Made by a program: the position numbers and the translations under genes. Positions 9,394 to 47,881 of a stretch of 64,000 nucleotides of DNA are shown here, piece by piece. A model generated the notes under the pieces. The model did no database searches. It worked only from the letters and a program-made list of their open reading frames with translations, and was not told the DNA's origin. Each line of letters starts with the position of its first letter. Positions within the stretch are counted from its first letter, which is position 1. The DNA is from a virus (Duplodnaviria > Caudoviricetes), in the IMG/VR virus record IMGVR_UViG_3300025267_002170, one strand, 5' to 3'.

Positions 9394-9846
9394 ATGTCGA
9401 AAATCCTAGACCGTTCTATCGAGATTGCCTATCAATTGTTCCCAACAGCGTATGAAAAGAAAAAAGGCTACCGGGCTTTCCACTTTGCTTTCGGATGGAA
9501 GAAGCGCAGGCTTCTAGCTATAGGCCAGAACGACACTTATAACCAAAGCGCGAAAGCTCTGTGGTTTGCTAAGAGGTTCAACAACAAAAAGCAAATCACC
9601 TACCCATTTCTACACGCTGAAGTAGACCTAGTCAGCAAACTGTGGGGAAAGATTTATGTTGATAATTCTGTTAAAGTTGTAGTATTAAGAATAAACAGTA
9701 GGGGAGAGTTGCAAAATAGCAAGCCGTGTAAGTCGTGTATGAATATGATTTCCGTTCTTGGGATTGATAAGGTCTGGTGGTCAGTCTCGACTGGAGATAT
9801 AGTTTCTTTACATGAGCAGGGGATTTATAACAATGGGGATGAGTGA
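9394..9846 (+). CDS. Zn-dependent cytidine/nucleotide deaminase-superfamily protein (not the dCMP deaminase)
   Basis: LHAEV and SKPCKSC motifs. Confidence 0.75.
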   Translation: MSKILDRSIEIAYQLFPTAYEKKKGYRAFHFAFGWKKRRLLAIGQNDTYNQSAKALWFAKRFNNKKQITYPFLHAEVDLVSKLWGKIYVDNSVKVVVLRINSRGELQNSKPCKSCMNMISVLGIDKVWWSVSTGDIVSLHEQGIYNNGDE

Positions 9847-10801
9847 TATTATACTTAAGCTGGATGTTCTTGGAAAGGGAATATTGGCAGCGGACGAAAG
9901 CATTCCGACCATAAAGAGTCGGTTTGAATCAGTGAGTATAACCTCAACGCCAGAGACCAGACACGATTATCGTCATACAATCTTTTCAACTAAGGGACTG
10001 CAAGAGTTTATAAGCGGGGTAATTCTTTTTGATGAAACTATCAACAATGAAGCAACAATTAAACCCTTGATTGATTCCAAAATAGCGCTTGGAATCAAGG
10101 TTGACACCGGAGCGAAGCCATACAACTCTCACATGCAGGGGGAGAGGTTCACAGAGGGTCTTGACGGCCTCTCAGAGCGTCTCAGGGGCTACAAAAGGCT
10201 CGGAGCCGAGTTCGCCAAGTGGAGGACGGTTCTGGCCCCAAAGACAACTGTTAATTGCTTAAGAGCAAACGCTAACGCTCTTGCTATTTATGCAAAAAAG
10301 TGTCAGAAAGAGGGTATAGTTCCCATAATAGAACCAGAAATTCTAATGGATGGAAACCACGGCGCTCTTAAGTCCTTTAATATCACTGAACACTGTCTTC
10401 ACTGTGTTTTTCATGAACTATGGAAAGAGAGGGTAGAGCTTGAGAGTATTATACTCAAGCCGAACATGGTGGTTTCTGGTTACAAGAATGAAAAAAGAAT
10501 TCGACCGGAGGTTGTTGCGGAACTAACAATAGCTTGCTTTAAGAGAACGGTTCCGTCTGCTGTTCCTATTATTGCTTTTCTTAGTGGTGGACAACCAAAT
10601 GATGAGTCTGTACAAAACCTTAATGCTATGAATCAGGAGTCTCCTGATTTGTTTCATTCTTGGTATTTAACATTTTCGTTCGGTAGAGAGCTACAGAAAA
10701 GCGCTCTAAAACAATGGTCGCTTGGTCATAAAGACGAAGCACAAAAACAACTTTTAAAGAAGGCGAAAGATTGCAGTAACGCTACATGGGGTGAACTGTG
10801 A
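9839..10801 (+). CDS. class I fructose-bisphosphate aldolase
   Basis: GKGILAADES, IKVDTG, FAKWR, PIIEPE, LKPNMV (Schiff-base Lys), FLSGGQ, TFSFGR; start uncertain (9812/9833/9839). Confidence 0.92.
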   Translation: MSDIILKLDVLGKGILAADESIPTIKSRFESVSITSTPETRHDYRHTIFSTKGLQEFISGVILFDETINNEATIKPLIDSKIALGIKVDTGAKPYNSHMQGERFTEGLDGLSERLRGYKRLGAEFAKWRTVLAPKTTVNCLRANANALAIYAKKCQKEGIVPIIEPEILMDGNHGALKSFNITEHCLHCVFHELWKERVELESIILKPNMVVSGYKNEKRIRPEVVAELTIACFKRTVPSAVPIIAFLSGGQPNDESVQNLNAMNQESPDLFHSWYLTFSFGRELQKSALKQWSLGHKDEAQKQLLKKAKDCSNATWGEL

Positions 10802-10983: not shown

Positions 10984-10989
10984 ACAACT

Positions 10990-11061
10990 GCCCCCGTAGT
11001 TCAACGGTTAGAACGCCGTTCTTATAAAGCGGTAACGTGAGTTCGACTCTCACCGGGGGTA
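10990..11061 (+). tRNA. tRNA-Ile(UAU)
   Basis: acceptor GCCCCCG/CGGGGGT, anticodon arm CCGTT-CT TAT AA-AGCGG, T arm GTGAG-TTCGACT-CTCAC; CCA not encoded. Confidence 0.9.
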
Positions 11062-11067
11062 TTTAAA

Positions 11068-11214
11068 ATGATGAAGACCTGTTTACATTTTGCTTATTGT
11101 TTGTGTTGGATTACGGCTGTGGTTAGCTTTATTTTCAATGGAAACGTATCAGAATCGAATTACTTCATACTTTGGGGTATAGTAAACTATCTACTATGGA
11201 GAGACGCTAAATAA
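11068..11214 (+). CDS. 48-aa two-TM micro-protein between tRNA and tmRNA (not in ORF track)
   Basis: MMKTCLHFAYCLCWITAVVSFIFNGNVSESNYFILWGIVNYLLWRDAK fills the gap exactly. Confidence 0.4.
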   Translation: MMKTCLHFAYCLCWITAVVSFIFNGNVSESNYFILWGIVNYLLWRDAK

Positions 11215-11217
11215 AAT

Positions 11218-11552
<335 letters not shown>

Positions 11553-11600
11553 CTATGATTAATTTGTTGGACTGTTTGGAAATTTTGGAAGGACACCTAA

Positions 11601-11915
11601 ATGACTAACTACGTTTCACAGAACCAGAAAAATAGTGTCAAAAAGATTCACTTTAATTGCAAACTAGACGGGATATCTAGAACCAGTTTTAGGTTTACTG
11701 AGATTACACCCAGAACTCAAAGCAAAATTTTTGGCAAAGATGGCGGCACAGGTTGTGTGTTAGGAACAAACTTTACAACTATTGAAGATGTGATGCACGC
11801 AATTGGTTGCGATTTGTTTGGAGAAACAAGATACAAAGTAACAATTACAGCGGAAGAACTTCCAAATGCCAAAAAAAAGAGACCAAAAAAAGAAAGCCAG
11901 AGAGAAACGGGTTAG
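11601..11915 (+). CDS. hypothetical protein
   Basis: AAGGA RBS. Confidence 0.5.
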   Translation: MTNYVSQNQKNSVKKIHFNCKLDGISRTSFRFTEITPRTQSKIFGKDGGTGCVLGTNFTTIEDVMHAIGCDLFGETRYKVTITAEELPNAKKKRPKKESQRETG

Positions 11916-12048
11916 ACAGAAGCTCCTTAAAAGAAGAACTCTCAAGAGAGAGGAGAGGAAACTTCAAAAGGAGATAGAAAAAATCCAGTGGGACAATAGA
12001 GAGCGGATTACTCCCATAAGGAACCCCGATAAGGATAAAGATGGCTAA
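11866..12048 (+). CDS. highly basic 60-aa protein
   Basis: MPKKRDQKKKAREKRVRQKLLKRR; stop overlaps next start. Confidence 0.5.
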   Translation: MPKKRDQKKKAREKRVRQKLLKRRTLKREERKLQKEIEKIQWDNRERITPIRNPDKDKDG

Positions 12049-12295
12049 ATTTTACATCGAATCTGGCGACATTAAGATTATAACGGAATCAAAGACTCCT
12101 TTTGGCGCCTGTTTAAAAGTAATAAAAATTATATCGGCACAATTTGGTAATGACAGTATAAATAAGTCTGTTAATCTTAGCGATACTTTTATGGTTACTG
12201 AAACGGGATTTCCTTCTGAAAGAAGGCCGTATTCAGTTCATAGTGGGGAGCATATTTTTAAAACTGAGACCGTTTTGGGCAGAGGTAGCGCATAG
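12041..12295 (+). CDS. hypothetical protein
   Basis: AAGGA RBS; packed ORF. Confidence 0.55.
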   Translation: MAKFYIESGDIKIITESKTPFGACLKVIKIISAQFGNDSINKSVNLSDTFMVTETGFPSERRPYSVHSGEHIFKTETVLGRGSA

Positions 12296-12301
12296 AATTG
12301 C

Positions 12302-12375
12302 GCCCTCGTAGCTCAACAGGACAGAGCAACGGTCTTCTAAACCGTAGGTTGCAGGTTCGAGTCCTGCCGAGGGTA
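12302..12375 (+). tRNA. tRNA-Arg(UCU)
   Basis: acceptor GCCCTCG/CGAGGGT, anticodon arm ACGGT-CT TCT AA-ACCGT, T arm GCAGG-TTCGAGT-CCTGC. Confidence 0.95.
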
Positions 12376-12392
12376 CTGAGAGAGGTTTTGTA

Positions 12393-12842
12393 ATGACTAC
12401 CAAGAGACTCATAGTAGATTGTGATGGGGTTATTGCCGACAAAAACAATGGTGGCAATTACGCAAATGCTGGACCTTTAAAACACGGCATAGAGCAAGTA
12501 AATAAGCTATACGATATGGGATATGAAATTATCCTGTATACTGCAAGGTATGGGGATAGAGAAACCGGAAATATACATCGTCAGTATGAACGTGGATATA
12601 GAGAATGGACCGATTGGTTAGAGAAATATGGTGTAAAATACACCTGCGCTTGGATGGGAAAGCCAGCCGGTGCTCTTTATATTGACGACAAAGCGGCCAG
12701 AGTTAGAGGAGATGATGAATCTGGCTGGGATGAAGTATGGAAAGAGGTTGACGCATTGAAGGATAAAGATAAATACGGAAATTTAATAATAGAAGAATTA
12801 GATACTGATGGCAAGGGAATTGCTTACAATATCAAGGCATAA
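12393..12842 (+). CDS. HAD-superfamily phosphatase (capsule-biosynthesis BcbF/EcbF-like)
   Basis: DCDGV, YTAR, GKP..LYIDDKA. Confidence 0.8.
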   Translation: MTTKRLIVDCDGVIADKNNGGNYANAGPLKHGIEQVNKLYDMGYEIILYTARYGDRETGNIHRQYERGYREWTDWLEKYGVKYTCAWMGKPAGALYIDDKAARVRGDDESGWDEVWKEVDALKDKDKYGNLIIEELDTDGKGIAYNIKA

Positions 12843-12844
12843 AG

Positions 12845-13369
12845 ATGAGACTAGACCATATAGCATACAGAGTAAAATCTAGAGAAGAGGCTGCTAGCTT
12901 TTTGTCCGCTATATTGGGATATAAAGTTGGGACCGAGTTTGAGATTGTCTTCGATGATAATTCTACTGCTAAATGTATTGCTATGGTTCCCCCGGAGAAA
13001 ATGTTTAATGTTATTAACATAGAACCGGGAGGTCTTAGGCATGTTGCCCCAGAAATATTTATATCTGACGGTGATGAGGACTCGATAGTCGGACAGTGGG
13101 TTGAAGCGAGGGATGGGGTTGGTGGTGTTCATCATATGGCATATCAGGTTGTAGAAATTGACAGCAGGGTTAAAGAATGGAGAGAGGCAGGAGTAGAATT
13201 TCTTACCGATGATGTTATAGATTGTCCAGAAGACAACCTGAGACAAATTTTTACCAAACCACTTAAAAACCTAGGCGAAATTATTATCGAATTGATTGAA
13301 AGAGGTGATAAGGGATTCTGTCAAAATTCTGTTAAACATCTCATGGAATCAAGCAAGGATTGCAAATGA
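12845..13369 (+). CDS. VOC-fold metalloenzyme resembling the catalytic domain of 4-hydroxyphenylpyruvate dioxygenase
   Basis: LDHIA, VHHMAY, LRQIFT, IELIER..GF..NSVKHLMES (His/His/Glu triad). Confidence 0.7.
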   Translation: MRLDHIAYRVKSREEAASFLSAILGYKVGTEFEIVFDDNSTAKCIAMVPPEKMFNVINIEPGGLRHVAPEIFISDGDEDSIVGQWVEARDGVGGVHHMAYQVVEIDSRVKEWREAGVEFLTDDVIDCPEDNLRQIFTKPLKNLGEIIIELIERGDKGFCQNSVKHLMESSKDCK

Positions 13370-14871
13370 CTACATATCAAGGAATTATCAGACAAAATAT
13401 GGTTGGAAATCATTATATTAATGGTTCCTTTATTTGCAATAAGAATTCAGAGTCTTTTGATAGTATTAACCCTGCTACTGGTGAAGTAGTCGGGACTTTT
13501 CCCGAGGCCAGCATTCCAGAGGTGGAATCTGCATACCAGTTTGCAAGAGACTCCTTTCAGGGATGGAGGAAATACAGCAGAGTAAAAAGGGCTGAATACT
13601 TCCTGACTCTAGCCAATTTGGTTGAACAAAGGCGTGAAGAAATTGCCGAAGCAATAACCCTTGAGACTGGAAAAGTTTTCAACGAGTCTATTGCCGAGGT
13701 AAATGAAGCTCTACACATGGCCCAGTACGCTTTCAGCACCGGGAAAATGCCTTATGGAGAAGCACTCGCGTCTGAGTTACCTGAAAAAGACGCCTATATG
13801 CTTCGCAAGCCAAAGGGTGTGGTCGCGATTGTTGCTCCTTTTAACTTTCCTTTTGCTATTGGCGGCTTCTGGTGCGCTGCACCCGCTCTGGTAGAAGGCA
13901 ACACTGTAATTCTAAAGCCAAGTGAAGACACTCCCTTGGTTGGAGAAATCACCGCCGAACTGTTTAACGATGCGGGATTTCCTCCCGGCGTATTTAATCT
14001 TGTTCACGGAGACGGAAGAGTTGGCAACGGTCTTATTAGACAAGACGTTGACCACGTTTGTTTTACTGGAAGTGCTGAGGTGGGAATGCACATAAGAAAG
14101 GTCTGTGCCGAAAGCTGGCATAAAACCTGCTCTTGTGAGATGGGGAGCAAGTCAGCGGTAATTATTCATGAGGACGCTAACTATGAGATGGCAATGGCTG
14201 CATGCTTGGCCAGCGCTTACAAACTATCTGGCCAACGCTGTGTGTCTGCTAGCAGACTGATTGTTCACAGAAGCCTGTATGATAAGTTTGCAGACGAATT
14301 TGCTAACAGGAGCGGAGACCTCAAAACCGGCAACCCATTTTTAAAAGACACTTTTTACGGTCCTCTAATCAACAAGAAACAACTTGATAGAGTTGTTTGG
14401 TTCAATAAGATGGTTGCCGCAGACCCAGAAGCAAATGTTCTACTCATGGGAGAGCAGGTAGAAGACAGCCTGTTCTTAACACCTACTGTATATCAAACGG
14501 AGTGGCGAGATGTTCCATATCTCAAACAAGAAGTGTTTGGACCTCATGTATCAATCATTCCTTACGATACAATTGATGATGCTATTAGGATTTACAACGA
14601 TACTGATTATGGACTTGCTCTAGGTGTGGTTACGGAGAACTTTAAAGTTGCTAGAAGAATTCGTAACGAGTGCGACTTTGGCCTTGGCTATTGGAATGGC
14701 GGTAGCATTGCTGCTGAAAGTCATCTTGGCTTTGGAGGAGTAAAGAAGTCTGGAAACGGACAGCCTAGCGCAGCCAGAACCTTTAGGGCGGTTACACACG
14801 AAGTTTCGTGGACCGTCAATCATGGTGACTCATTGAACTTTCCACAGGGAATGAAAGCTGGGACCGAGTAA
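13360..14871 (+). CDS. NAD-dependent aldehyde dehydrogenase
   Basis: PFNFP, LKPSE, FTGS, EMGSK, SGQRC, EVFGP, FGGVKKSG; start could be 13366 or 13399. Confidence 0.95.
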   Translation: MQMTTYQGIIRQNMVGNHYINGSFICNKNSESFDSINPATGEVVGTFPEASIPEVESAYQFARDSFQGWRKYSRVKRAEYFLTLANLVEQRREEIAEAITLETGKVFNESIAEVNEALHMAQYAFSTGKMPYGEALASELPEKDAYMLRKPKGVVAIVAPFNFPFAIGGFWCAAPALVEGNTVILKPSEDTPLVGEITAELFNDAGFPPGVFNLVHGDGRVGNGLIRQDVDHVCFTGSAEVGMHIRKVCAESWHKTCSCEMGSKSAVIIHEDANYEMAMAACLASAYKLSGQRCVSASRLIVHRSLYDKFADEFANRSGDLKTGNPFLKDTFYGPLINKKQLDRVVWFNKMVAADPEANVLLMGEQVEDSLFLTPTVYQTEWRDVPYLKQEVFGPHVSIIPYDTIDDAIRIYNDTDYGLALGVVTENFKVARRIRNECDFGLGYWNGGSIAAESHLGFGGVKKSGNGQPSAARTFRAVTHEVSWTVNHGDSLNFPQGMKAGTE

Positions 14872-15236
14872 TGTTTTTCATGGAAGAAAAAGATTTTATT
14901 AACAGCGTTCTTCATGATAAAGTTACAATCAATAATAGCAAAATTCATGACAAGGGACTTTTTGCTGTATCAGATATTGAAAAAGACACCACTCTTCATG
15001 TGACACATGTGCATAAGGAATTAGTAGACTATGTAGGAGCCTTGTGCGGCTGGATTAATCTAACTCCAAACAATCAATACAATCACTCTAAGGAAAGAGA
15101 AAACTGTAAAATAGTTACGGATGGCCTTACCAAGGGCTTGGTAACTTTAAGGAATATAATTGCAGGAGAGGAGCTACTAGTAGACTATACAAAGGATTTA
15201 GAACTAGAGCAACCTGAACCCGGCTGGAAGCCATGA
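14871..15236 (+). CDS. SET-domain protein (putative lysine methyltransferase)
   Basis: KGLFA, YNHS, GEELLVDY. Confidence 0.8.
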   Translation: MFFMEEKDFINSVLHDKVTINNSKIHDKGLFAVSDIEKDTTLHVTHVHKELVDYVGALCGWINLTPNNQYNHSKERENCKIVTDGLTKGLVTLRNIIAGEELLVDYTKDLELEQPEPGWKP

Positions 15237-16036
15237 GTAAAATACTTTTATGCAATCCATCATGCTACTCGATAGAGTATGAAATAAACCCTTGGATGGA
15301 TACAAACAATAAACCAGACCAACGAATCTCTGAAAAGCAATGGAATTTACTTCACGATACGCTTTTAAGATGCGGAGCAGAGCTTGTATATATAAGCTCT
15401 GAACCAAAAGTTCCAGACATGGTGTTTGTTGCCAACGCTGGAATAGTCAAGGGCAATACTGTTGTATTATCCAATTTTAAACACCCAGAGAGACAAAAAG
15501 AAAAACAGTATTACAAAGACTGGTTTCTAAAAAATAATTATAGAGTCATTGAAATCCCCGAGCATCTTAATTTTGAAGGTGCTGGGGATGCTTTATTTTT
15601 TAACGACATACTATTTATGGGGTATGGTTTTAGAACTGACCTAGCTGCTCACAAATTGGTGGCTACCGCACTAAATGTTGACTATACATCCTGTGAATTA
15701 ATAGACCCTCGATTTTATCATTTGGACACCTGTTTTCTACCAATACAAAACAGAGTAGTGTATTACAGAAAAGCTTTTTCTAATAGTTCTGCAAACAAGA
15801 TGTTAAAGACTCTTTTAAATGAATCACAGAGAACCAATCAGTATCTTGATATAGTTAATGTATGCGAAGGTCTTGCAAAACAATTTGTTTGCAATAGCAT
15901 TTGCATAGGTGAAAATATAATAACTCCCTCTAAAGATTGTGCTTCAGTATTTTATGATAACGTAATAAACTACTGCGACATGTCGGAGTTTATAAAAGCA
16001 GGAGGAGCGGTAAAATGTCTAACACTTCAGTTATAG
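15233..16036 (+). CDS. amidinotransferase/DDAH/arginine-dihydrolase superfamily enzyme
   Basis: YEINPWM, PDMVFVANAG, FEGAGD, FYHLDTCF, KAGGAVKCLT. Confidence 0.88.
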   Translation: MSKILLCNPSCYSIEYEINPWMDTNNKPDQRISEKQWNLLHDTLLRCGAELVYISSEPKVPDMVFVANAGIVKGNTVVLSNFKHPERQKEKQYYKDWFLKNNYRVIEIPEHLNFEGAGDALFFNDILFMGYGFRTDLAAHKLVATALNVDYTSCELIDPRFYHLDTCFLPIQNRVVYYRKAFSNSSANKMLKTLLNESQRTNQYLDIVNVCEGLAKQFVCNSICIGENIITPSKDCASVFYDNVINYCDMSEFIKAGGAVKCLTLQL

Positions 16037-17217
16037 ATAGATTATCAAAGCATATACTAGTCGACGGGTTTCATCTCGCTGTTGACCAGAAGAAAAGCTC
16101 TGGTTCTTGGATAGTAGACCTAGATGGAAACAAGTATCTAGATTGTTATTCACAGTTCGCTAGTCAGCCTCTTGGCTGGAATCATAAAGCGTTGGTAAAT
16201 GCAAAGCAGGAGCTTGGAGAAGTCGCCATGCATAAAATTGCCAACAGCGACATGTATACTGAGCAGTATGCTACATTTGTAGAAAAGTTTTCTAGCATCA
16301 CTCCAGACTTTAGTCACTATTTTTTCATTGATGGGGGTGCTTTAGCTGTAGAAAACGCACTAAAGGCAGCGTTCGACTGGAAAGCAAAAAAGCTAGGGAT
16401 AACCAGTGACGAAGACATTAACACCCTAGATGTTTTTCATTTGGGTAATGCCTTTCATGGCAGAACCGGATACACCCTCTCACTGACAAACACTACGCCG
16501 GAAAAAACAGACTTGTTTCCGAAGTTTCAGTGGAATAGAATATGGAGCATTGAGGACGCAGAGGAATTGATGCACGACAGAGTGGCCGCAATGGTAGTTG
16601 AGCCTATTCAGGGCGAAGGTGGAGACAACCATTTTGTCCCAGAACTTTTCCCCCTAATGAGGAAGTGGGCAGACGATAACGACGTTATTCTAATATTTGA
16701 TGAGGTTCAGACTGGCGTTGGCCTTACAGGGAAAATGTGGTGCTATGAACATTTTGGAATAGTTCCCGACATGATGTGTTTTGGTAAAAAGACGCAAGTC
16801 TGTGGATTCTGCTCAACTGACAGGATAGACGAGGTGGAACACAATGTATTCAATGATAGTGGTAGGATTAATTCTACTTGGGGTGGGAATATTGTTGATA
16901 TGGTTAGATTCGGACACATAATAGATGCTATTGAAAAAGAAAACCTTGTCGATAACGTACACGAGGTCGGAAGCCATCTTGAAAATGCTCTAAATAATCT
17001 GGATATTATTTCTAATGTTAGAGGCATGGGTCTAATGATTGCTTTTGATTTAGATACTCCTGACCTAAGAGACCAAATGGTTTCTTTATTGCAAGAAGAC
17101 ATGATTGTTCTTAAGTCTGGAACCCACTCAATTAGGCTTAGACCACCATTGACCTTTTCAAAGCAAGACGCGGACTCGGCGGTAGTCTTTATAGACAGAG
17201 CGGCAAACAAGCTATGA
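16015..17217 (+). CDS. lat: L-lysine 6-transaminase (class III PLP aminotransferase)
   Basis: GGALAVENALKAAFDWK, AFHGRTGYTLSLTNT, FPKF, EPIQGEGGD, FDEVQTG, FGKKTQVCG, RINSTWGGN. Confidence 0.88.
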   Translation: MSNTSVIDRLSKHILVDGFHLAVDQKKSSGSWIVDLDGNKYLDCYSQFASQPLGWNHKALVNAKQELGEVAMHKIANSDMYTEQYATFVEKFSSITPDFSHYFFIDGGALAVENALKAAFDWKAKKLGITSDEDINTLDVFHLGNAFHGRTGYTLSLTNTTPEKTDLFPKFQWNRIWSIEDAEELMHDRVAAMVVEPIQGEGGDNHFVPELFPLMRKWADDNDVILIFDEVQTGVGLTGKMWCYEHFGIVPDMMCFGKKTQVCGFCSTDRIDEVEHNVFNDSGRINSTWGGNIVDMVRFGHIIDAIEKENLVDNVHEVGSHLENALNNLDIISNVRGMGLMIAFDLDTPDLRDQMVSLLQEDMIVLKSGTHSIRLRPPLTFSKQDADSAVVFIDRAANKL

Positions 17218-18074
17218 AAATACAAAATGTAGGAATAATAGGTCAGGGCTTTGTTGGAAGCGCTTTGCGTAATACGTTTGAAAATTATTATAATGTATAC
17301 ACTTACGATAAATTTCAAGTAGACAAGTCTACCCACACAAGCATTCAATCACTGTCTAGAGCCTGTGAAGTTATCTTTGTTTGTGTTCCTACGCCCATGA
17401 ATAAAGATGGCTCTTGTGACATATCAATAGTTACAGATGTTGTAAAAATAGCCTGTAGTACCGGAAGAAAAAATATAATAGCAATCAAGTCTACAGTACC
17501 CCCCAACACTACAAAATCTTTACAAGACCTATGCCAAGATTCTCACATAGTCTTCAATCCTGAATTCCTATTAGAGAGAAATGCAGAAGAAGACTTTAAG
17601 AATACCACTCGTGTTATCCTTGGTGGTCCGAGACCGGCAACAACATTACTAAAACAATTCTATTCAAGAATATTTCCTGACGCAGACATAGTAAAAACTG
17701 ATTCAACAATTGCTGAAATGATTAAATATTTAACCAATACATTTTTAGCAGTCAAAGTATCTTTTGCCAACGAAATTTATGCAATCTGTGAAAGTTTAGG
17801 TATAGATTACGATAAGGTACTGGAATACTCTCTCTACGACGATAGACTGGGACGTTCTCATTGGTCGGTTCCGGGTCCAGATGGACATTACGGATTCGGA
17901 GGAAGCTGTTTCCCCAAGGACTTAAATGCTTTAATGCATCTGACTCACTCTATGTGCATCCAAGCGAATACAATAAGTGGCGCATGGAATACCAACCTAA
18001 TGGTTAGGCCGGAGAAGGACTGGGAAAGCTTGAAGGGAAGGGCAGTAGTAGACAGTCCTGAAAATAACACCTAG
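17214..18074 (+). CDS. UDP-glucose/GDP-mannose dehydrogenase family, short form
   Basis: GQGFVG, CVPTP, IKSTVPP, NPEFL, GFGGSCFPKD; no C-terminal UDP-binding domain. Confidence 0.85.
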   Translation: MKIQNVGIIGQGFVGSALRNTFENYYNVYTYDKFQVDKSTHTSIQSLSRACEVIFVCVPTPMNKDGSCDISIVTDVVKIACSTGRKNIIAIKSTVPPNTTKSLQDLCQDSHIVFNPEFLLERNAEEDFKNTTRVILGGPRPATTLLKQFYSRIFPDADIVKTDSTIAEMIKYLTNTFLAVKVSFANEIYAICESLGIDYDKVLEYSLYDDRLGRSHWSVPGPDGHYGFGGSCFPKDLNALMHLTHSMCIQANTISGAWNTNLMVRPEKDWESLKGRAVVDSPENNT

Positions 18075-19559: not shown

Positions 19560-20645
19560 ATGGAACACTTTAATTTAATAACTCCTATAAACCAGCTTGG
19601 ATATGGTGTTACTGGCCTTAATGTTGCAAAAAGCCTTTCTAAATTGGGGAGAGTTGCCCTTTGGCCACTGGGAAATGTAGATTGTCCTCAAGAGGACACG
19701 CAAAGCATAATACAATTAATAAAAAACAATCAACTGCCAAACTTTAACGCTCCCTGCTTAAGAATATGGCATCAAAATGATATGAGCCAGTTTGTTGGCC
19801 GGGGATTAAGGGCGGGGTTTCCTATATTTGAGCTAGACACATTCACTGAGATAGAGAAATCACATCTTTCCCAGTTAGATAGCTTGATTGTTTGCTCTGA
19901 TTGGGCAAGAAAGGTGTGTATAGAAAATGGAGTAGTCGGGGACAACTCCCGGCCAGTGGTTAGCGTTGCTCCACTCGGTGTTGACGGGCAAGTATTCAAA
20001 CCCCACTTGTCAAACAGAAAAACAACTGTCTTTTTCAATTGCGGGAAGTGGGAGATAAGAAAGGGGCATGATTTAATCGTAGATGCTTTCAATCAGGCCT
20101 TCGTGCCGGAAGACGACGTAGAACTGTGGATGATGTGCAGAAACCCTTTCTTTAGCGACAGCGAGAATGACGAATGGGAGCAGTTATATTTGAAATCTCC
20201 CCTTGGTTCAAAGGTAAAAATAATTTCCAGACAACCCACGCAAAAAGATGTGTATAATATAATGAGAGAGACAGATTGTGGGGTTTTTCCTGCCCGCGCA
20301 GAGGGCTGGAACTTGGAGTTGCTTGAGATGCTCTCTTGTGGTAAACATGTAATAGCCACAGATTATTCTGGGCACACTGAGTTTTGCAGCCATAAAAACA
20401 CCCTTCTCCTCAACGTGAAAAACACAGAAGAAGCTTTTGACGGTAAGTGGTTTCATGGACAGGGCCAATGGGCCAAGCTCACAGATAAAGAAACTGGTTA
20501 CGTTGCATCATTGATGAAATCTGTGCATAGAACAAAACAATCTGGCAGCCTTCCCATGAACGAAGAGGGAATAAAAACGGCCAATCAATTTTCATGGGAA
20601 AATACAGCGGAGAAAATTAGAGATGCCCTCACCACAAAAGAATGA
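19560..20645 (+). CDS. glycosyltransferase, GT4 (GT-B)
   Basis: GKWEIRKGHD, PARAEGWNLELLEMLSCG. Confidence 0.88.
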   Translation: MEHFNLITPINQLGYGVTGLNVAKSLSKLGRVALWPLGNVDCPQEDTQSIIQLIKNNQLPNFNAPCLRIWHQNDMSQFVGRGLRAGFPIFELDTFTEIEKSHLSQLDSLIVCSDWARKVCIENGVVGDNSRPVVSVAPLGVDGQVFKPHLSNRKTTVFFNCGKWEIRKGHDLIVDAFNQAFVPEDDVELWMMCRNPFFSDSENDEWEQLYLKSPLGSKVKIISRQPTQKDVYNIMRETDCGVFPARAEGWNLELLEMLSCGKHVIATDYSGHTEFCSHKNTLLLNVKNTEEAFDGKWFHGQGQWAKLTDKETGYVASLMKSVHRTKQSGSLPMNEEGIKTANQFSWENTAEKIRDALTTKE

Positions 20646-44568: not shown

Positions 44569-46491
44569 ATGACTTGGGTTCCTCTACATTTGCACAGCCA
44601 CTATAGCTTGCTGGATGGTCTGTCTAAGCCCGGCCAGATATCTGACAGATGCGAGACTCTCGGATACGATGTTTGTGCCCTTACAGACCATGGAACAATA
44701 TCTGGAGCCGTCTCTTTTGTCAAAGCGATGAAAGAGAAGGGAATCAAACCCATCTTGGGATGTGAACTGTATCTTTCTCAAGACTCGGCAACAATTCAAG
44801 ATAAAGAAAACAGAACACTTAGCCATCTTGTGGTTCTCGCAAAAAATAAAGATGGTTGGTTAGACTTAATTTCGATAGTTTCAAGAAGCAATGATGAAGA
44901 TGTGTTCTATTTTAGACCTAGAATTGATTTAAGTATTCTAGAAGAGCTTAACAAGAATCAAAACTTAATAGCTTTTAGCGGACATCCCGGCAGCGACCTC
45001 GCCAATGTTCTTTTTGTTAATTGGAAAAAGGCTTATAATTCTAAGTCATATGAAGAAGCGGCCAAGCACCTTAAAAGAAATTGGTTTGAAGAGGCCAGTA
45101 TTCTTCTGTCTAAGTATATAAATATATTTGGCAAGGAAAACTTCTATATTGAAATTCAGCTTATAGATAAAGAGAACTTCCCCGCCTCCGAGTTAATAGC
45201 AGAATGCCTAAGAAGCCTTAGCTCCAAGAGTGGAACTCCTCCTGTTGCCACGGCTGACTCCCACTATCCCACCAAGGAAGATGCCCCAGACCAACGCATG
45301 CTTCTTTGCTCAGCGATGAAAACTACATTGCAAAAGGTCGAGCAAAAGCTAAATGAAGGAAGCGATATAGGTCTTTCCGGTTTCTTTAGGTCTGATAATT
45401 ACCACATACCAACACCGGAAGAGATTGAACCCCTTCATACAAAAGAGGAGATATTAAACACACGTGTGATATCTGGCTTGTGTGAAGAATATAATATATT
45501 AGGGCATCCTATTCTTCCAAAGTTTTCATGTCCAGACAGCCTTAGTGAAGACGCATATCTTCGCTCTTTGTGTAGAGACGGGTGGAAGAGATTGCTCATA
45601 AAATCGGGCAAGATATCAGATGAACATTCTACACAGACATATTTGGAAACAATCAAAAAAGAATTAGAAGTAATCAAGGACGCTAATCTAGCTGGATATT
45701 TCCTAATCGTTAGAGACATAGTTAATTATGTCAGGCAAGAAGGATGGCTTCCGGGTCCGGGGAGAGGGTCGGCTGCCGGAAGCTTAATCTCATACTTAAT
45801 AGGCATCACTCAGGTGGACCCCGTAGAATTCGGCTTAATTTTTGAGAGATTCTATAACGCCGGAAGAAATACAGACGGACATATTTCTTTACCTGATATT
45901 GATATAGATGTTCCCGCCACAAAAAGAGACGAAGTTATAAAATATATTCGCTCAAAATATGGCCATTACAATGTCGGACAGATGATTACCTTCTTAAAGC
46001 TTCAGGGAAGAAGCGCATTAAAAGAAGTTCTTAGAGCGCACGACGCCTGTTCATACGACGAAATGAATGCCATAACTAAAACGCTTCCACAAGAGCACGA
46101 AATTTCTGACCAACTTCAGGACATGGAAGAGCCTTCAATAATTATGTGGGCTTTAATTAACACACCTGAAGAGCTTAAAGACTATTGTAGGCTAGACAAA
46201 GAAAATAATTTAGTCGGCACATACGCAAAACTTTTTCAACAAGCAATGAGAATTGAAGGAACTTATAAATCCCAAGGCAAGCATGCCGCTGGCGTGGTCA
46301 TTTCCTCGCACAATCTAGATAAAGTCTGTCCGATGATTAGAGAATCAAAGGGGTCTGACAAGATAGCTGGATTAGAAATGGTTGACTTGGAAGCCATGGG
46401 GCATGTCAAGTTTGATATTTTGGGTGTAAACCTTTTGGATAAAATTATGGGTATTAGTAGTCAATTATCATGTGGAGTAATCGAGGTTTAA
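44569..46491 (+). CDS. dnaE: DNA polymerase III alpha, N-terminal half (PHP + palm/thumb)
   Basis: HLHSHYSLLDG, TDHG, GRGSAAGS, PDIDID, HAAGVVI, KFDILG. Confidence 0.93.
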   Translation: MTWVPLHLHSHYSLLDGLSKPGQISDRCETLGYDVCALTDHGTISGAVSFVKAMKEKGIKPILGCELYLSQDSATIQDKENRTLSHLVVLAKNKDGWLDLISIVSRSNDEDVFYFRPRIDLSILEELNKNQNLIAFSGHPGSDLANVLFVNWKKAYNSKSYEEAAKHLKRNWFEEASILLSKYINIFGKENFYIEIQLIDKENFPASELIAECLRSLSSKSGTPPVATADSHYPTKEDAPDQRMLLCSAMKTTLQKVEQKLNEGSDIGLSGFFRSDNYHIPTPEEIEPLHTKEEILNTRVISGLCEEYNILGHPILPKFSCPDSLSEDAYLRSLCRDGWKRLLIKSGKISDEHSTQTYLETIKKELEVIKDANLAGYFLIVRDIVNYVRQEGWLPGPGRGSAAGSLISYLIGITQVDPVEFGLIFERFYNAGRNTDGHISLPDIDIDVPATKRDEVIKYIRSKYGHYNVGQMITFLKLQGRSALKEVLRAHDACSYDEMNAITKTLPQEHEISDQLQDMEEPSIIMWALINTPEELKDYCRLDKENNLVGTYAKLFQQAMRIEGTYKSQGKHAAGVVISSHNLDKVCPMIRESKGSDKIAGLEMVDLEAMGHVKFDILGVNLLDKIMGISSQLSCGVIEV

Positions 46492-47201: not shown

Positions 47202-47881
47202 ATTACAGAGACATAATTGTTTTTGATTTTGAAACAGGAAGCAGAAACCCACACAAGACACAGCCTACACAAATAGCTGCGGTAGCTATTCATGGAAGAA
47301 AGCTAACCGTACAACCGGGTGGATATTTCAATAGTGAAATCAGACCCATAATTGACGATGACGAAGCTATTGAATCTGGTCTTGACCCCCTAGAGGAAGA
47401 GGCTCTGGCAATCACACACAAGGACAGGGAGTCTTTGGCCAAAGCCCCCCATCCCAAACAGGTGTGGGGGAAGTTCTCAGATTTTGTTAATAAGTACAAC
47501 TTTAAAAAAACTTCTTTCTATGCGCCAATACCTGCTGGGTATAACATAAACGGCTTTGATATGCCAATAGTTAATAGAATGTGTCAGCAATATGGTCCTA
47601 GAGATGATAAAACTGGCGGGCAAAAACTCTTTAATAAAGCATACAAACTAGACGTAATGGACCTAGTTTGGGTTTGGATGGAAAATAATCCAGACGTAAA
47701 GTCTATAAGCATGGATTCAATGAGAGACTATATGGGGATAGATAAAGAGGGTTCCCATGATGCTCTAAAGGATGTTAAAGATACTGCAAATATAATGATA
47801 AGATTTTTGAAGTTTCACAGGGCGTTAGCACCTAAAACACAATTTGAAAAGGCTTTTGCAGATGGAAAATCTTACATTTAA
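47198..47881 (+). CDS. DEDDh 3'-5' exonuclease (Pol III epsilon-like)
   Basis: FDFETG, GYNINGFD, HDALKD. Confidence 0.88.
   Translation: MNYRDIIVFDFETGSRNPHKTQPTQIAAVAIHGRKLTVQPGGYFNSEIRPIIDDDEAIESGLDPLEEEALAITHKDRESLAKAPHPKQVWGKFSDFVNKYNFKKTSFYAPIPAGYNINGFDMPIVNRMCQQYGPRDDKTGGQKLFNKAYKLDVMDLVWVWMENNPDVKSISMDSMRDYMGIDKEGSHDALKDVKDTANIMIRFLKFHRALAPKTQFEKAFADGKSYI

What the first reader, a model, noticed from the sequence alone, without database searches (positions are those of the whole stretch)
12845..17217. Phage-encoded Lys/Arg catabolic operon: HPPD-like VOC + ALDH + SET + amidinotransferase-fold enzyme + lysine 6-transaminase
Seen: five overlapping or abutting ORFs with intact catalytic motifs. 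Known: Lat plus a semialdehyde dehydrogenase convert L-Lys to 2-aminoadipate. HglS, a VOC-fold His/His/Glu enzyme with HPPD-like chemistry, converts 2-oxoadipate to 2-hydroxyglutarate. The INPWM/HLDT/GG.KC signature fits ArgZ-type arginine dihydrolases and DDAH. Inference, model A: Lys (or homoarginine to Lys) to aminoadipate to 2-HG, with the single-domain VOC as an HglS analogue. Model B: Arg to Orn + 2 NH3, then Glu-semialdehyde, then Glu, mobilising nitrogen for nucleotide synthesis. The embedded SET gene suggests a further option, turnover of methylated Lys/Arg. I know of no description of such a multi-step pathway in a phage.
Basis: partly seen in the sequence, partly recalled or inferred. 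Interest (0 to 1): 0.75.

Follow-up and report, generated by a model that had tools for sequence, protein, structure and literature searches.

The report
Phage arginine and lysine breakdown operon
An uncultured marine T4-like phage carries a tightly packed enzyme gene cluster, conserved in many related ocean viruses, that most likely breaks down the nitrogen-rich amino acids arginine and lysine during infection; I found no paper that describes such a viral module.

Summary
The five ORFs are real, intact and phage-borne. They belong to a seven-gene, translationally coupled block (12393-18074): HAD phosphatase, VOC, ALDH, SET, ArgZ-like hydrolase, LAT-family transaminase, two-domain UGDH-like dehydrogenase.

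Comparison with about 250 viral loci shows the block is modular.
- The invariant core is ALDH, ArgZ-like, LAT, in that order in 20 of 21 LAT-bearing viral loci.
- VOC-ALDH is an older pair found in 49 of 73 VOC-anchored loci. It usually sits with a lysine-6-dehydrogenase-like gene instead of LAT.
- SET is an optional insert in 3 of 21 loci.
- The UGDH-like gene elsewhere sits in sugar clusters.

A pLDDT-92 VOC model is closest to the hydroxymandelate synthase catalytic domain (Z 18.4). Plant hydroxyglutarate synthase scores Z 13.6.

The same phage encodes a proline dehydrogenase, and relatives encode ornithine cyclodeaminase-family genes.

Best reading (0.55): an auxiliary operon that degrades arginine (via ornithine) and lysine to glutamate or 2-aminoadipate and releases ammonia. 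The VOC may handle a 2-oxo acid.

The SET/methyl-turnover idea is not supported. The scan found the same kind of cluster before on other DNA (e1-5661184). No activity has been tested.

The parts
12393..12842 (+). Small cap-less HAD-IIIA-type phosphatase (149 aa), first gene of the coupled block. It is a conserved associate of the VOC-ALDH pair. Its role is unknown.
   Evidence: TIGR01689 EcbF-BcbF matches at E 1.8e-14, below the cut-off. The DCDGV nucleophile motif is present. There is a 2-nt gap to the VOC gene. A HAD-like gene accompanies VOC-ALDH in 29 of 49 loci, in two different positions.
12845..13369 (+). Single-domain VOC protein (174 aa) resembling the catalytic C-terminal domain of hydroxymandelate synthase/HPPD. 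It is a candidate Fe(II) 2-oxo-acid decarboxylating oxygenase.
   Evidence: Pfam Glyoxalase_4 matches. D4, H5, H96, H97, Q134, F136 and R153 are near-invariant and E149 is invariant over 62 diverse members. The AF2 model has pLDDT 92.3. VIA-align gives HMS 2r5v Z 18.4, HglS homologue 6w1k Z 13.6 and MMCE 13.4. Foldseek query-normalised TM is 0.73-0.76 for HMS/HPPD and 0.63 for MMCE.
13360..14871 (+). NAD(P)-dependent hydrolytic aldehyde dehydrogenase (503 aa from the TTG; the real start is probably the ATG at 13366, which overlaps the VOC stop as ATGA). Proposed to oxidise glutamate-5-semialdehyde/P5C and 2-aminoadipate-6-semialdehyde/P6C.
   Evidence: PF00171 matches at E 1e-128. No NCBIfam equivalog cut-off is reached. 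Cys294, Glu260 and EVFGP are present. The gene lies directly upstream of the ArgZ-like gene in 20 of 21 LAT-bearing viral loci. It forms a VOC-ALDH pair in 49 of 73 VOC-anchored loci.
14871..15236 (+). Minimal SET-domain methyltransferase (121 aa). It is an optional insert between ALDH and the ArgZ-like gene and is not part of the conserved core.
   Evidence: PF00856 scores 28 bits, gathering score 22.4. NHS and ELLVDY motifs are present. The weak best PDB match is PBCV-1 vSET, 119 aa, E 0.069. SET sits at this position in only 3 of 21 LAT-bearing loci.
15233..16036 (+). Stand-alone ArgZ-like guanidino-group hydrolase (267 aa). Proposed arginine dihydrolase: L-Arg to L-Orn + 2 NH3 + CO2.
   Evidence: Best PDB matches are ArgZ Sll1336 and AgrE Alr4995 at E 1e-57 to 1e-52, against 1e-7 for DDAH1. 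NF052232 scores 237.6 bits (cut-off 450) and NF045659 scores 215 bits (cut-off 300). N19, W21, D62, N68, R87, E90, E115, D119, R134, H163, D165 and C262 are conserved in 63 unique phage homologues.
16015..17217 (+). LAT-family class III aminotransferase (400 aa). Proposed omega-transaminase for L-lysine (to 2-aminoadipate semialdehyde) and probably L-ornithine (to glutamate semialdehyde).
   Evidence: TIGR03251 scores 478.4 bits (cut-off 520.8) and the next family scores 213. Mtb LAT 2cin matches at E 3e-103. 105 positions are conserved with 76 cellular LATs. There is one systematic switch (F to L375), and 31 alignment columns are deleted. The start overlaps the ArgZ-like gene by 22 nt behind an AGGAGGAG motif.
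17214..18074 (+). Two-domain UGDH/GMD-family dehydrogenase (286 aa: NAD-binding and central domains, no nucleotide-sugar-binding C-terminal domain). It is the last gene of the coupled block and its role is unresolved.
   Evidence: PF03721 and PF00984 match. TIGR03026 scores 199 bits (cut-off 189.8). It keeps the NPEFL and GFGGSCFPKD catalytic motifs. It belongs to a mainly viral family, one Atlas cluster of 3565 members being 92% viral. Elsewhere the gene lies among GDP-mannose dehydratase, DegT and GT2 genes. It is present in 15 of 21 LAT-bearing loci.

Best explanation
The block is a composite auxiliary metabolic operon of a marine T4-like phage. It degrades the two nitrogen-rich basic amino acids.

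Proposed steps (all inferred from family membership and gene linkage):
1. The ArgZ-like hydrolase converts L-arginine to L-ornithine, two ammonia and CO2.
2. The LAT-family transaminase moves the terminal amino group of L-lysine, and probably of the ornithine just made, to 2-oxoglutarate. This gives glutamate plus 2-aminoadipate semialdehyde or glutamate semialdehyde.
3. The aldehyde dehydrogenase oxidises these semialdehydes to 2-aminoadipate or glutamate.
4. The VOC protein is a half-size hydroxymandelate-synthase/HPPD-type iron enzyme. It probably decarboxylates and hydroxylates a 2-oxo acid further down the route. 2-Oxoadipate to 2-hydroxyglutarate, as HglS does, is the leading guess.

The net effect would be ammonia, glutamate and carbon skeletons for phage nucleotide and protein synthesis.

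What is shown: the gene content, the intact active sites, the tight coupling and the conservation patterns. The roles of the HAD phosphatase and the UGDH-like dehydrogenase are unknown. SET is a passenger.
For: 1. Seven genes are translationally coupled.
2. The order ALDH, ArgZ-like, LAT is invariant in 20 of 21 LAT-bearing viral loci. Flanking genes vary and one clade is rearranged.
3. The hydrolase is closest to ArgZ/AgrE (E 1e-57). It keeps the catalytic Cys/His, the acidic residues and two Arg residues in 63 unique phage homologues.
4. The transaminase has the active-site pattern of 76 cellular LATs. In cells, LAT sits directly after an ALDH in 29 of 80 loci, including true lat-pcd pairs.
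5. In 35 of the 49 VOC-ALDH loci the pair is joined by a protein whose best solved relative is L-lysine 6-dehydrogenase (3ABI, E 1.6e-18; identity of 3ABI from PMC10413350). The next relative is the saccharopine dehydrogenase domain of human AASS. This enzyme also makes 2-aminoadipate semialdehyde.
6. The VOC model (pLDDT 92) matches the HMS catalytic domain at Z 18.4 and 2-oxoadipate-bound hydroxyglutarate synthase at Z 13.6. HglS, HMS and HPPD share one mechanism (PMC7286885).
7. The same phage record has a proline dehydrogenase (39.5 bits, cut-off 27). Two related cassette-bearing phage records have OCD/mu-crystallin genes (232-260 bits).
8. In another phage lineage the ArgZ-like gene lies next to pyrB (12 of 80 loci). 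That fits nitrogen supply for nucleotides.
Against: - No enzyme reaches an NCBIfam equivalog cut-off. The scores are ArgZ domain 237/450, LAT 478/520.8, Pcd 269/730 and GSA dehydrogenase 305/648.
- The Mtb-type DDAH model scores almost as well as the ArgZ model (215 against 238 bits).
- The LAT active site shows no retuning towards ornithine, so ornithine use is an inference from gene linkage only.
- LAT and the LysDH-like gene coexist in 10 of 21 loci, which looks redundant.
- The block is a mosaic of modules that also occur apart: ArgZ-like alone in 52 of 80 loci, VOC alone in 21 of 73, UGDH-like alone in 34 of 41. LAT stands alone in L306 and in LR756511.
- No gene for the 2-aminoadipate to 2-oxoadipate step was identified.
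- By Foldseek E-value, MMCE ranks above HMS for the VOC.
- The host is unknown.
Confidence: 0.55

Rival explanations
1. Arginine-only route. The LAT-family enzyme has been recruited as an ornithine delta-aminotransferase. The core does only Arg to Orn to glutamate semialdehyde to Glu, a dihydrolase version of the RocF-RocD-RocA pathway. Lysine is handled, if at all, by the separate LysDH-like gene of relatives.
For: In viral contigs LAT is almost always directly behind, and overlapping, the ArgZ-like gene (20 of 21 loci). Relatives that keep a LysDH-like gene would then not be redundant. ProDH and OCD-family genes in this phage group also converge on P5C and glutamate.
Against: The phage enzyme keeps the full residue pattern of 76 cellular LATs with a single systematic change. 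It scores 478 bits on LAT_fam against 163 on ornithine aminotransferase. The window itself lacks a LysDH-like gene.
Confidence: 0.12
2. Lysine-only route. Lys goes to 2-aminoadipate semialdehyde, 2-aminoadipate, 2-oxoadipate, 2-hydroxyglutarate. The ArgZ-like enzyme either makes lysine from homoarginine or is an unrelated nitrogen scavenger that happens to sit inside the operon.
For: The LAT active site is genuine. ALDH-LAT pairing matches cellular lat-pcd operons. VOC-ALDH is linked to a LysDH-like gene in other phages. The VOC resembles HMS and HglS.
Against: The ArgZ-like gene is the most constant partner of LAT and is translationally coupled to it. Its closest relatives act on arginine. 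Homoarginine is a rare metabolite (general knowledge). The ALDH is not Pcd-type. No 2-aminoadipate transaminase is encoded nearby.
Confidence: 0.1
3. No common pathway. The block is a hypervariable island where independently useful host-derived genes pile up. Each works on its own with host enzymes, for example the ArgZ-like enzyme for ammonia and the UGDH-like and HAD enzymes for sugars.
For: Each module also occurs alone or in other company: ArgZ-like next to pyrB, UGDH-like in nucleotide-sugar clusters, VOC alone. SET comes and goes. In the 595-kb phage LR756511 the LAT, ALDH and VOC homologues lie more than 100 kb apart.
Against: The order and overlaps of ALDH, ArgZ-like and LAT are kept at 46-57% protein identity of the hydrolase, while the surroundings change. 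All partner genes found in relatives belong to Lys/Orn/Pro chemistry, which is not expected of a random pile.
Confidence: 0.13
4. A biosynthetic rather than catabolic purpose. The enzymes would make a special product, such as pipecolate, proline or 2-aminoadipate as an osmolyte or building block. Alternatively, together with the HAD phosphatase, UGDH-like dehydrogenase, class I aldolase and glycosyltransferase nearby, they would make an amino-acid-like or sugar-linked compound for a modified cell surface or DNA.
For: The HAD phosphatase and UGDH-like genes are inside the coupled block. A class I FBA gene (9812-10801) and a glycosyltransferase (19560-20645) are near it here and in relatives. 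UGDH-like genes elsewhere are in sugar clusters. OCD-family enzymes can make proline or pipecolate (general knowledge).
Against: The core persists without UGDH-like, HAD or GT genes in several loci (L301, L303, L304, L310). Class III LAT-type transaminases are not the sugar aminotransferase type (DegT). No ligase or transferase that would attach an amino acid was seen next to the core.
Confidence: 0.07
5. Turnover of methylated lysine or arginine. SET methylates proteins and the DDAH-like enzyme and partners recycle methylated residues.
For: A SET gene lies directly before the hydrolase in this window. The Pfam match of the hydrolase is to the DDAH family, and the Mtb-type DDAH model gives 215 bits.
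Against: SET is absent from 18 of 21 loci with the core. SET enzymes methylate lysine, not arginine (general knowledge). The hydrolase is far closer to ArgZ than to solved DDAHs. The DDAH product citrulline cannot be used by an omega-transaminase.
Confidence: 0.02

Closest known systems
ArgZ (Sll1336) / AgrE (Alr4995) arginine dihydrolase pathway of cyanobacteria (PDB 6juy, 6lrf)
   Same: It is the closest solved relative of the 267-aa hydrolase (E 1e-57, aligned end to end). All motif blocks are shared, including the Asn of ANAG that is mutated in entry 6juz. The phage group also has separate OCD-family and proline dehydrogenase genes, so the logic Arg to Orn to Pro/P5C to Glu is mirrored.
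   Different: The phage protein is a stand-alone domain, whereas ArgZ/AgrE are about 700-aa fusions. It scores below the NCBIfam cut-off (237.6/450). It is joined to a LAT-type transaminase and an ALDH, a combination not seen around 80 cellular LATs or two cellular hydrolase homologues.
Bacterial lat-pcd operon (L-lysine 6-transaminase + piperideine-6-carboxylate dehydrogenase), e.g. Sphingobacterium; Mtb LAT Rv3290c (PDB 2cin)
   Same: The transaminase is of the LAT family and shares its conserved residues. An ALDH gene lies upstream in the same orientation.
   Different: The phage ALDH is not the Pcd/ALDH7 type (269 bits, cut-off 730; 26-30% identity to Pcd-type neighbours). A hydrolase gene is wedged between ALDH and LAT. 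The phage LAT lacks 31 alignment columns and is only 44-50% identical to cellular LATs, except for L133 at 65%, which looks like a mis-binned phage fragment.
Arginase pathway RocF-RocD-RocA of Bacillus (Arg to Orn to glutamate semialdehyde to Glu)
   Same: It has the same three-step logic: a guanidino-removing enzyme, a class III omega-transaminase and an ALDH (general knowledge).
   Different: Arginase is replaced by an amidinotransferase-fold dihydrolase, which needs no urease. RocD is replaced by a LAT-family enzyme. RocA is replaced by an unassigned ALDH subfamily.
Hydroxymandelate synthase / HPPD / hydroxyglutarate synthase HglS (intramolecular 2-oxo-acid oxygenases of the VOC superfamily)
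   Same: The VOC model superposes best on the HMS catalytic domain (Z 18.4, rmsd 2.6 A, 157 residues). It also superposes on rice HglS homologue FLO7 bound to 2-oxoadipate (Z 13.6, 160 residues). It has the His/His/Glu triad and an HPPD-like QIFTKP...ELIER...GF tail.
   Different: It has only one VOC domain (174 aa against about 350 for HMS/HPPD and about 450 for HglS). It is below all sequence cut-offs (4HPPD 44.6/277; no PF07063 hit). Its substrate is unknown, and MMCE-type epimerases are nearly as similar.
L-lysine 6-dehydrogenase of Pyrococcus horikoshii (PDB 3ABI) and the saccharopine dehydrogenase family
   Same: It is the best solved relative (E 1.6e-18) of the 350-370-aa protein that accompanies VOC-ALDH in most other phage loci, and in sister lineages of this phage.
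   Different: It is absent from this window and from the held record. Its activity is untested, and the family also holds saccharopine reductase, homospermidine synthase and carboxyspermidine dehydrogenase (PMC10413350).

Membership tests
ArgZ-type arginine dihydrolase (NCBIfam NF052232 / NF052231) | Score at or above the curated cut-off | tested here: not met
   237.6 bits against 450 (domain model). 230.7 bits against 1025 (bifunctional model).
ArgZ-type arginine dihydrolase (NCBIfam NF052232 / NF052231) | Closest solved relatives are ArgZ/AgrE, with an end-to-end alignment and the catalytic Cys/His/acidic and substrate-binding residues | tested here: met
   E 1e-57 to 1e-52 over residues 3-266. 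C262, H163, D165, D62, E115, D119, R87, R134 and N68 are conserved in at least 95% of 63 unique phage homologues. The roles of these residues are from general knowledge of the superfamily.
ArgZ-type arginine dihydrolase (NCBIfam NF052232 / NF052231) | Fusion to a C-terminal ornithine cyclodeaminase domain | tested here: not met
   The protein is a 267-aa stand-alone. Separate OCD/mu-crystallin genes exist in two related phage records but none in the held record of this phage.
ArgZ-type arginine dihydrolase (NCBIfam NF052232 / NF052231) | Converts L-arginine to ornithine + 2 NH3 + CO2 | not testable with these tools
   An enzyme assay is needed.
Dimethylarginine dimethylaminohydrolase (DDAH) | Score above the curated cut-off of an equivalog model | tested here: not met
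   NF045659 (Mtb type) 215.4/300, NF045660 47.7/340, NF045658 33.5/450. Only the broad Pfam family PF19420 is passed (55.9 bits, gathering score 23). Solved DDAH1 structures match at only E 1e-7.
L-lysine 6-transaminase family (TIGR03251) | Score at or above the curated cut-off | tested here: not met
   478.4 bits against 520.8. The match is split in two by a deletion. The next family scores 213 bits.
L-lysine 6-transaminase family (TIGR03251) | Family-wide conserved residues, including the PLP lysine and the substrate-binding Arg/Glu/Asn/Thr | tested here: met
   105 positions are conserved in both 76 cellular and 20 phage sequences. They include R150, E201, D229, K258/K259, N286, T288, R374 and R376. 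There is one systematic switch, F to L375. Mtb LAT matches at E 3e-103.
L-lysine 6-transaminase family (TIGR03251) | Preference for L-lysine over L-ornithine | not testable with these tools
   Kinetics are needed.
Piperideine-6-carboxylate dehydrogenase (Pcd/ALDH7; NF050084) | Score at or above the curated cut-off | tested here: not met
   269.5 bits against 730. The Sphingobacterium ALDH beside LAT scores 813.7.
Glutamate-5-semialdehyde dehydrogenase (RocA/PutA type; NF002852, TIGR01237) | Score at or above the curated cut-off | tested here: not met
   305.2/648 and 283.8/659.65.
Aldehyde dehydrogenase superfamily (PF00171) | Full-length domain with the catalytic Cys and general-base Glu | tested here: met
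   429.9 bits over residues 28-479. Cys294 in GQRC, Glu260 in CEMGSKS, and EVFGP are present.
4-hydroxyphenylpyruvate dioxygenase / hydroxymandelate synthase | Sequence score above the cut-off and a two-domain architecture | tested here: not met
   TIGR01263 scores 44.6 bits against 277. The protein has a single 174-aa domain.
4-hydroxyphenylpyruvate dioxygenase / hydroxymandelate synthase | Catalytic-domain fold with a 2-His-1-Glu triad and a C-terminal helix | tested here: met
   HMS 2r5v: Z 18.4, rmsd 2.6 A, 157 residues, model 1-174 on chain 157-346, 4 Z units above the next row. H5 and H96/H97 are near-invariant and E149 is invariant. The position of the ligands in the model was not measured.
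Hydroxyglutarate synthase HglS (DUF1338, PF07063) | Match to the family profile | tested here: not met
   There is no match at E <= 1 anywhere in the phage record and none in the Pfam scan of the protein.
Hydroxyglutarate synthase HglS (DUF1338, PF07063) | Structural likeness to a solved HglS with substrate | tested here: inconclusive
   6w1k Z 13.6, DUF1338 entries 3lho 12.1 and 3iuz 10.7, YdcJ 2rjb 8.3. These tie with MMCE at 13.4.
Methylmalonyl-CoA epimerase (TIGR03081) | Score at or above the curated cut-off | tested here: not met
   46 bits against 114.95. MMCE structures have the best Foldseek E-values (1.5e-11) but cover only the core, with TMq 0.63.
SET-domain lysine methyltransferase (PF00856) | Pfam gathering score and the NHS and ELxxDY motifs | tested here: met
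   28 bits against 22.4. YNHS and ELLVDY are present.
UDP-glucose/GDP-mannose dehydrogenase family (TIGR03026) | Three-domain architecture with a nucleotide-sugar-binding C-terminal domain | tested here: not met
   Only PF03721 and PF00984 match. The protein has 286 aa against about 400-450 in solved members. The subfamily score of 199 bits does pass the cut-off of 189.8.
UDP-glucose/GDP-mannose dehydrogenase family (TIGR03026) | Catalytic Cys motif | tested here: met
   GFGGSCFPKD and NPEFL align with the same motifs of four solved enzymes.

The most novel reading that the evidence does not exclude
Marine phages encode a complete, self-sufficient route from lysine and arginine to central metabolism, built from unusual minimal enzymes. 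A half-size (174-aa, single-domain) hydroxymandelate-synthase-type iron oxygenase does the HglS reaction (2-oxoadipate to 2-hydroxyglutarate). A stand-alone ArgZ domain feeds ornithine into a LAT-type transaminase. A UGDH-family dehydrogenase that has lost its nucleotide-binding domain has been re-purposed for a small-molecule step of the same route.
Probability: 0.2. Interest if true: 0.78.

Novelty: new variant of a known kind. Interest (0 to 1): 0.6.

Why it matters
Phage auxiliary metabolic genes are known for photosynthesis, carbon, phosphate, sulfur and nucleotide metabolism. A conserved multi-enzyme operon for amino-acid catabolism would add a new way for viruses to redirect host nitrogen. 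Arginine and lysine are the most nitrogen-rich abundant amino acids, and the open ocean is often nitrogen-limited.

The lineage is common. Single 90%-identity LAT clusters were seen on 59 and 107 contigs, and several homologues come from Tara Oceans data.

The cluster also offers compact enzymes of practical and mechanistic interest:
- a 267-aa stand-alone arginine dihydrolase candidate;
- a 174-aa minimal HMS/HPPD-type oxygenase candidate, from a family with only about 540 relatives among 1.84 billion representative proteins;
- a large, almost purely viral family of two-domain UGDH-like dehydrogenases whose substrate is unknown.

Tried and rejected
- Isolated phages. Only distant ArgZ-like genes turned up (Xanthomonas phiXF1, Ralstonia RsoM2USA, Bacteroides phages), with no cassette around them. 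ALDH, VOC and LAT relatives above 40% identity occur only in uncultured huge-phage assemblies LR756511 and LR756504, where they are dispersed.
- Cellular donor. The scan of 185,579 species genomes gave LATs of 44-50% identity from many phyla and no ArgZ-like, VOC or UGDH-like neighbour. The 65% hit (L133, a 'Dehalococcoidia' MAG) looks like a mis-binned phage fragment.
- Cellular contexts of ArgZ-like and VOC relatives were uninformative.
- The ArgZ structure papers could not be read. Residue roles in ArgZ therefore rest on alignment and general knowledge.
- The first VOC model, from 11 sequences, was poor (pLDDT 67) and gave blurred matches. It was replaced by a 62-sequence model.
- Promoter and terminator scans were at chance level.
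- A polyamine reading of the Sacchrp_dh-like partner (carboxyspermidine dehydrogenase) was set aside. The solved CASDH entries named in PMC10413350 did not appear among its matches at E <= 0.001, and no decarboxylase is linked.
- A CoA-acylating (methylmalonate-semialdehyde type) ALDH with an MMCE-type VOC was considered. The ALDH has the general-base Glu of hydrolytic ALDHs, and the VOC is closer to HMS by Z. This reading is not excluded.
- The host was not determined.

Full report
**Observation**

They are part of a longer run of seven co-directional genes with almost no intergenic DNA:
- HAD phosphatase 12393-12842, then a 2-nt gap.
- VOC 12845-13369, whose stop overlaps an ATG at 13366 (ATGA). 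This is the likely true start of the ALDH.
- ALDH to 14871, joined to the next gene by TAATG.
- SET 14871-15236, joined by ATGA.
- ArgZ-like hydrolase 15233-16036, with a 22-nt overlap behind an AGGAGGAG motif.
- LAT-family transaminase 16015-17217, joined by ATGA.
- Two-domain UGDH-like dehydrogenase 17214-18074.

A tRNA-Arg gene ends 16 nt before the HAD gene, and a tmRNA and a tRNA-Ile lie just upstream.

**Phage context and chimera check**

The window is part of a 119-kb IMG/VR virus record that CheckV rates 79% complete. It carries rIIA, ribonucleotide reductase, UvsX, DnaB and a split family-B DNA polymerase. GC content is even across the block. The same gene order is found in more than 20 viral contigs from different samples. 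A misassembled host fragment is therefore very unlikely.

**The enzymes one by one**

- *Hydroxylase candidate (ArgZ-like hydrolase).* It aligns end to end with the N-terminal arginine dihydrolase domain of cyanobacterial ArgZ/AgrE (E 1e-57). Solved DDAH1 enzymes reach only 1e-7. By NCBIfam it lies between the ArgZ domain model (237.6 bits, cut-off 450) and the Mtb-type DDAH model (215 bits, cut-off 300). Among 63 unique phage homologues the catalytic Cys262 and His163 are at least 95% conserved. So are the acidic residues D62, E115, D119 and D165, two arginines (R87, R134) and the Asn of ANAG.
- *Transaminase.* It scores 478 bits on LAT_fam (cut-off 520.8) against 163 bits on ornithine aminotransferase, and 3e-103 against M. 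tuberculosis LAT. I aligned 20 phage and 76 cellular LAT-family proteins. 105 positions are conserved in both groups, and only one position switches systematically (F to L375). The phage proteins lack 31 alignment columns. It is therefore a genuine LAT-type active site.
- *ALDH.* It has Cys294 and Glu260 but reaches no equivalog cut-off. It is neither Pcd (269/730) nor RocA/PutA type (305/648).
- *SET.* The protein has the NHS and ELLVDY motifs and the size of chlorovirus vSET.
- *UGDH-like protein.* It keeps the GGSCFPKD cysteine motif but lacks the nucleotide-sugar-binding domain.

**The VOC protein**

By sequence it ties between methylmalonyl-CoA epimerase and HPPD (46 and 44.6 bits).
- Its family is small: 539 hits among 1.84 billion representatives.
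- Over 62 diverse members E149 is invariant. D4, H5, H96, H97, Q134, F136, R153 and F158 are at least 90% conserved. That gives a His/His/Glu triad with an HPPD-like QIFTKP...ELIER...GF tail.
- A model built on that alignment has pLDDT 92.3.
- An exhaustive structural comparison puts the catalytic domain of hydroxymandelate synthase first: Z 18.4, rmsd 2.6 A, 157 residues, the whole model aligned. This is four Z units above the rest.
- The rice hydroxyglutarate synthase homologue bound to 2-oxoadipate follows at Z 13.6. MMCE follows at 13.4, and other DUF1338 structures at 12.1, 10.7 and 8.3.
- Foldseek gives the highest query-normalised TM-scores to HMS/HPPD (0.73-0.76), while MMCE has the best E-values.
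- HglS, HMS and HPPD form one mechanistic group of intramolecular 2-oxo-acid oxygenases (PMC7286885).

The HglS-like reaction remains a hypothesis. There is no PF07063 match.

**Comparative genomics: the block is modular**

1. *Anchored on LAT.* 21 viral loci carry a LAT-family gene. 20 of them have the order ALDH, ArgZ-like, LAT with abutting or overlapping ORFs. VOC lies upstream in 16, the UGDH-like gene downstream in 15, and SET is present in 3. A more distant clade has the order VOC, UGDH-like, ALDH, ArgZ-like, LAT.
2. *Anchored on VOC.* Of 73 loci, 49 have the ALDH directly after the VOC. 29 of those have no LAT or ArgZ-like gene. They have instead a 350-370-aa saccharopine-dehydrogenase-family gene, often with a small HAD-like gene and sometimes ClpP in between. 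The best solved relative of that protein is the L-lysine 6-dehydrogenase of Pyrococcus horikoshii (3ABI, E 1.6e-18). The SDH domain of human aminoadipate-semialdehyde synthase comes next. The carboxyspermidine dehydrogenase entries named in PMC10413350 were not among its matches. In sister lineages of this phage the LysDH-like gene sits in the same cassette, after the UGDH-like gene. The window has lost it or never had it.
3. *Anchored on the ArgZ-like gene.* Of 80 loci, 52 have it without any other cassette gene. In 12 it lies beside an aspartate carbamoyltransferase gene (TIGR00670, 260 bits, above cut-off).
4. *Anchored on the UGDH-like gene.* It usually sits among GDP-mannose dehydratase, DegT aminotransferase and glycosyltransferase genes. 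It belongs to a largely viral family.

**Cellular genomes**

LAT homologues in cells (44-50% identity, many phyla) often follow an ALDH gene (29 of 80 loci). In Sphingobacterium this is a true piperideine-6-carboxylate dehydrogenase, and in some other phyla it is another ALDH type. None has an ArgZ-like, VOC or UGDH-like neighbour. Two cellular ArgZ-like homologues stand among unrelated genes. The combination is therefore a viral invention, not a captured host operon.

**Other genes of the same theme**

- The held record of this phage has a proline dehydrogenase gene about 14 kb upstream of the block (Pro_dh 39.5 bits, cut-off 27). It lies beside a 2OG-Fe dioxygenase and an enoyl-CoA hydratase.
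- No OCD gene is in the held record, which is shorter than the genome the scan is reading.
- Two related cassette-bearing phage records, one rated 100% complete, each have an OCD/mu-crystallin gene (232-260 bits).
- Arginine dihydrolase, OCD, proline dehydrogenase and an ALDH are together the steps of the cyanobacterial ArgZ-PutA route.

**Interpretation**

The most economical reading is a phage operon for basic amino-acid catabolism.
- The ArgZ-like enzyme releases two ammonia and CO2 from arginine.
- The LAT-type transaminase and the ALDH take lysine, and probably the ornithine just formed, to 2-aminoadipate and glutamate.
- The VOC-ALDH pair is the older lysine-linked module, into which the ArgZ-like/LAT pair was inserted.
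- The VOC may deal with 2-oxoadipate.

Use of ornithine by the LAT-type enzyme rests only on gene linkage. Its active site looks like that of lysine enzymes. The roles of the HAD phosphatase and the UGDH-like dehydrogenase are open. SET is a passenger.

I put 0.55 on this reading. The remainder is spread over an arginine-only route, a lysine-only route, an island of unrelated genes, a biosynthetic purpose and the SET-linked idea.

**Novelty**

Full-text searches found no paper that links auxiliary metabolic genes with DDAH or arginine dihydrolase, with lysine transaminase, with saccharopine dehydrogenase or with aminoadipate and lysine catabolism. Another agent of this scan reached a similar conclusion for a related cluster on other DNA (e1-5661184), and first-stage notes flagged the half-size HPPD-like VOC in other genomes.

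The new points here are:
- the modular history of the block;
- the LysDH-like partner;
- the structural placement of the VOC;
- the pyrB linkage of the hydrolase;
- the OCD and ProDH genes.

All enzymes belong to known superfamilies, so I class this as a new variant of a known kind (phage auxiliary metabolism).

Noticed in passing
window 14871-15236: A minimal 121-aa SET-domain protein in a bacteriophage, the same size as chlorovirus vSET (119 aa). Homologues at 39-55% identity turn up in other marine phage loci (L008, L237, L254). Its target in a prokaryotic host is unknown.
   Followed up: partly
window 17214-18074; loci L093-L131: A two-domain UGDH/GMD-like dehydrogenase without the nucleotide-sugar-binding domain but with the catalytic Cys motif. 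The family is very large and almost purely viral (one Atlas cluster has 3565 members, 92% viral). It usually sits among GDP-mannose dehydratase, DegT and glycosyltransferase genes.
   Followed up: partly
L018:6723-8777 and 11 further viral loci: In another phage lineage the ArgZ-like gene lies directly downstream of an aspartate carbamoyltransferase gene (pyrB, above the TIGR00670 cut-off) and upstream of a histidine-phosphatase-family gene. This suggests a link between arginine nitrogen and pyrimidine synthesis.
   Followed up: partly
G000:C1:100989-104642 (about window -3000 to -1; locus L286): A cluster of a proline dehydrogenase-like gene, a PF10014 2OG-Fe dioxygenase and an enoyl-CoA hydratase lies just upstream of the window.
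   Followed up: partly
window 9812-10801: A class I fructose-bisphosphate aldolase gene (326 bits). It stays within a few kb of the cassette in both phage clades, upstream or downstream.
   Followed up: no
window 10989-12376: tRNA-Ile(UAU), a tmRNA with tag AEKQFALAA and tRNA-Arg(UCU) lie directly upstream of the operon. The tRNA-Arg gene ends 16 nt before the HAD start codon.
   Followed up: no
L133 (CAYUCO010000084.1, 'Dehalococcoidia' MAG, 3.7-kb contig): This contig carries LAT (65%), DUF2784 (78%) and UGDH-like (78%) genes in phage-like arrangement. It is probably a phage fragment binned into a bacterial MAG.
   Followed up: no
L306:1314-10417: This is the one IMG/VR locus where LAT stands without ALDH and the ArgZ-like gene. 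There it is surrounded by a trypsin-like protease, a CAP-domain protein, a LAGLIDADG endonuclease and an M14 carboxypeptidase.
   Followed up: partly
LR756511.1 (595-kb uncultured huge phage): It has homologues of LAT (58%), ALDH (54%) and VOC (46%) more than 100 kb apart, and no ArgZ-like hit. The genes can therefore persist unlinked in a very large phage genome.
   Followed up: partly
window 44569-46491 and 47844-49514: The family-B DNA polymerase is split into two ORFs separated by about 1.3 kb that holds two further ORFs.
   Followed up: no
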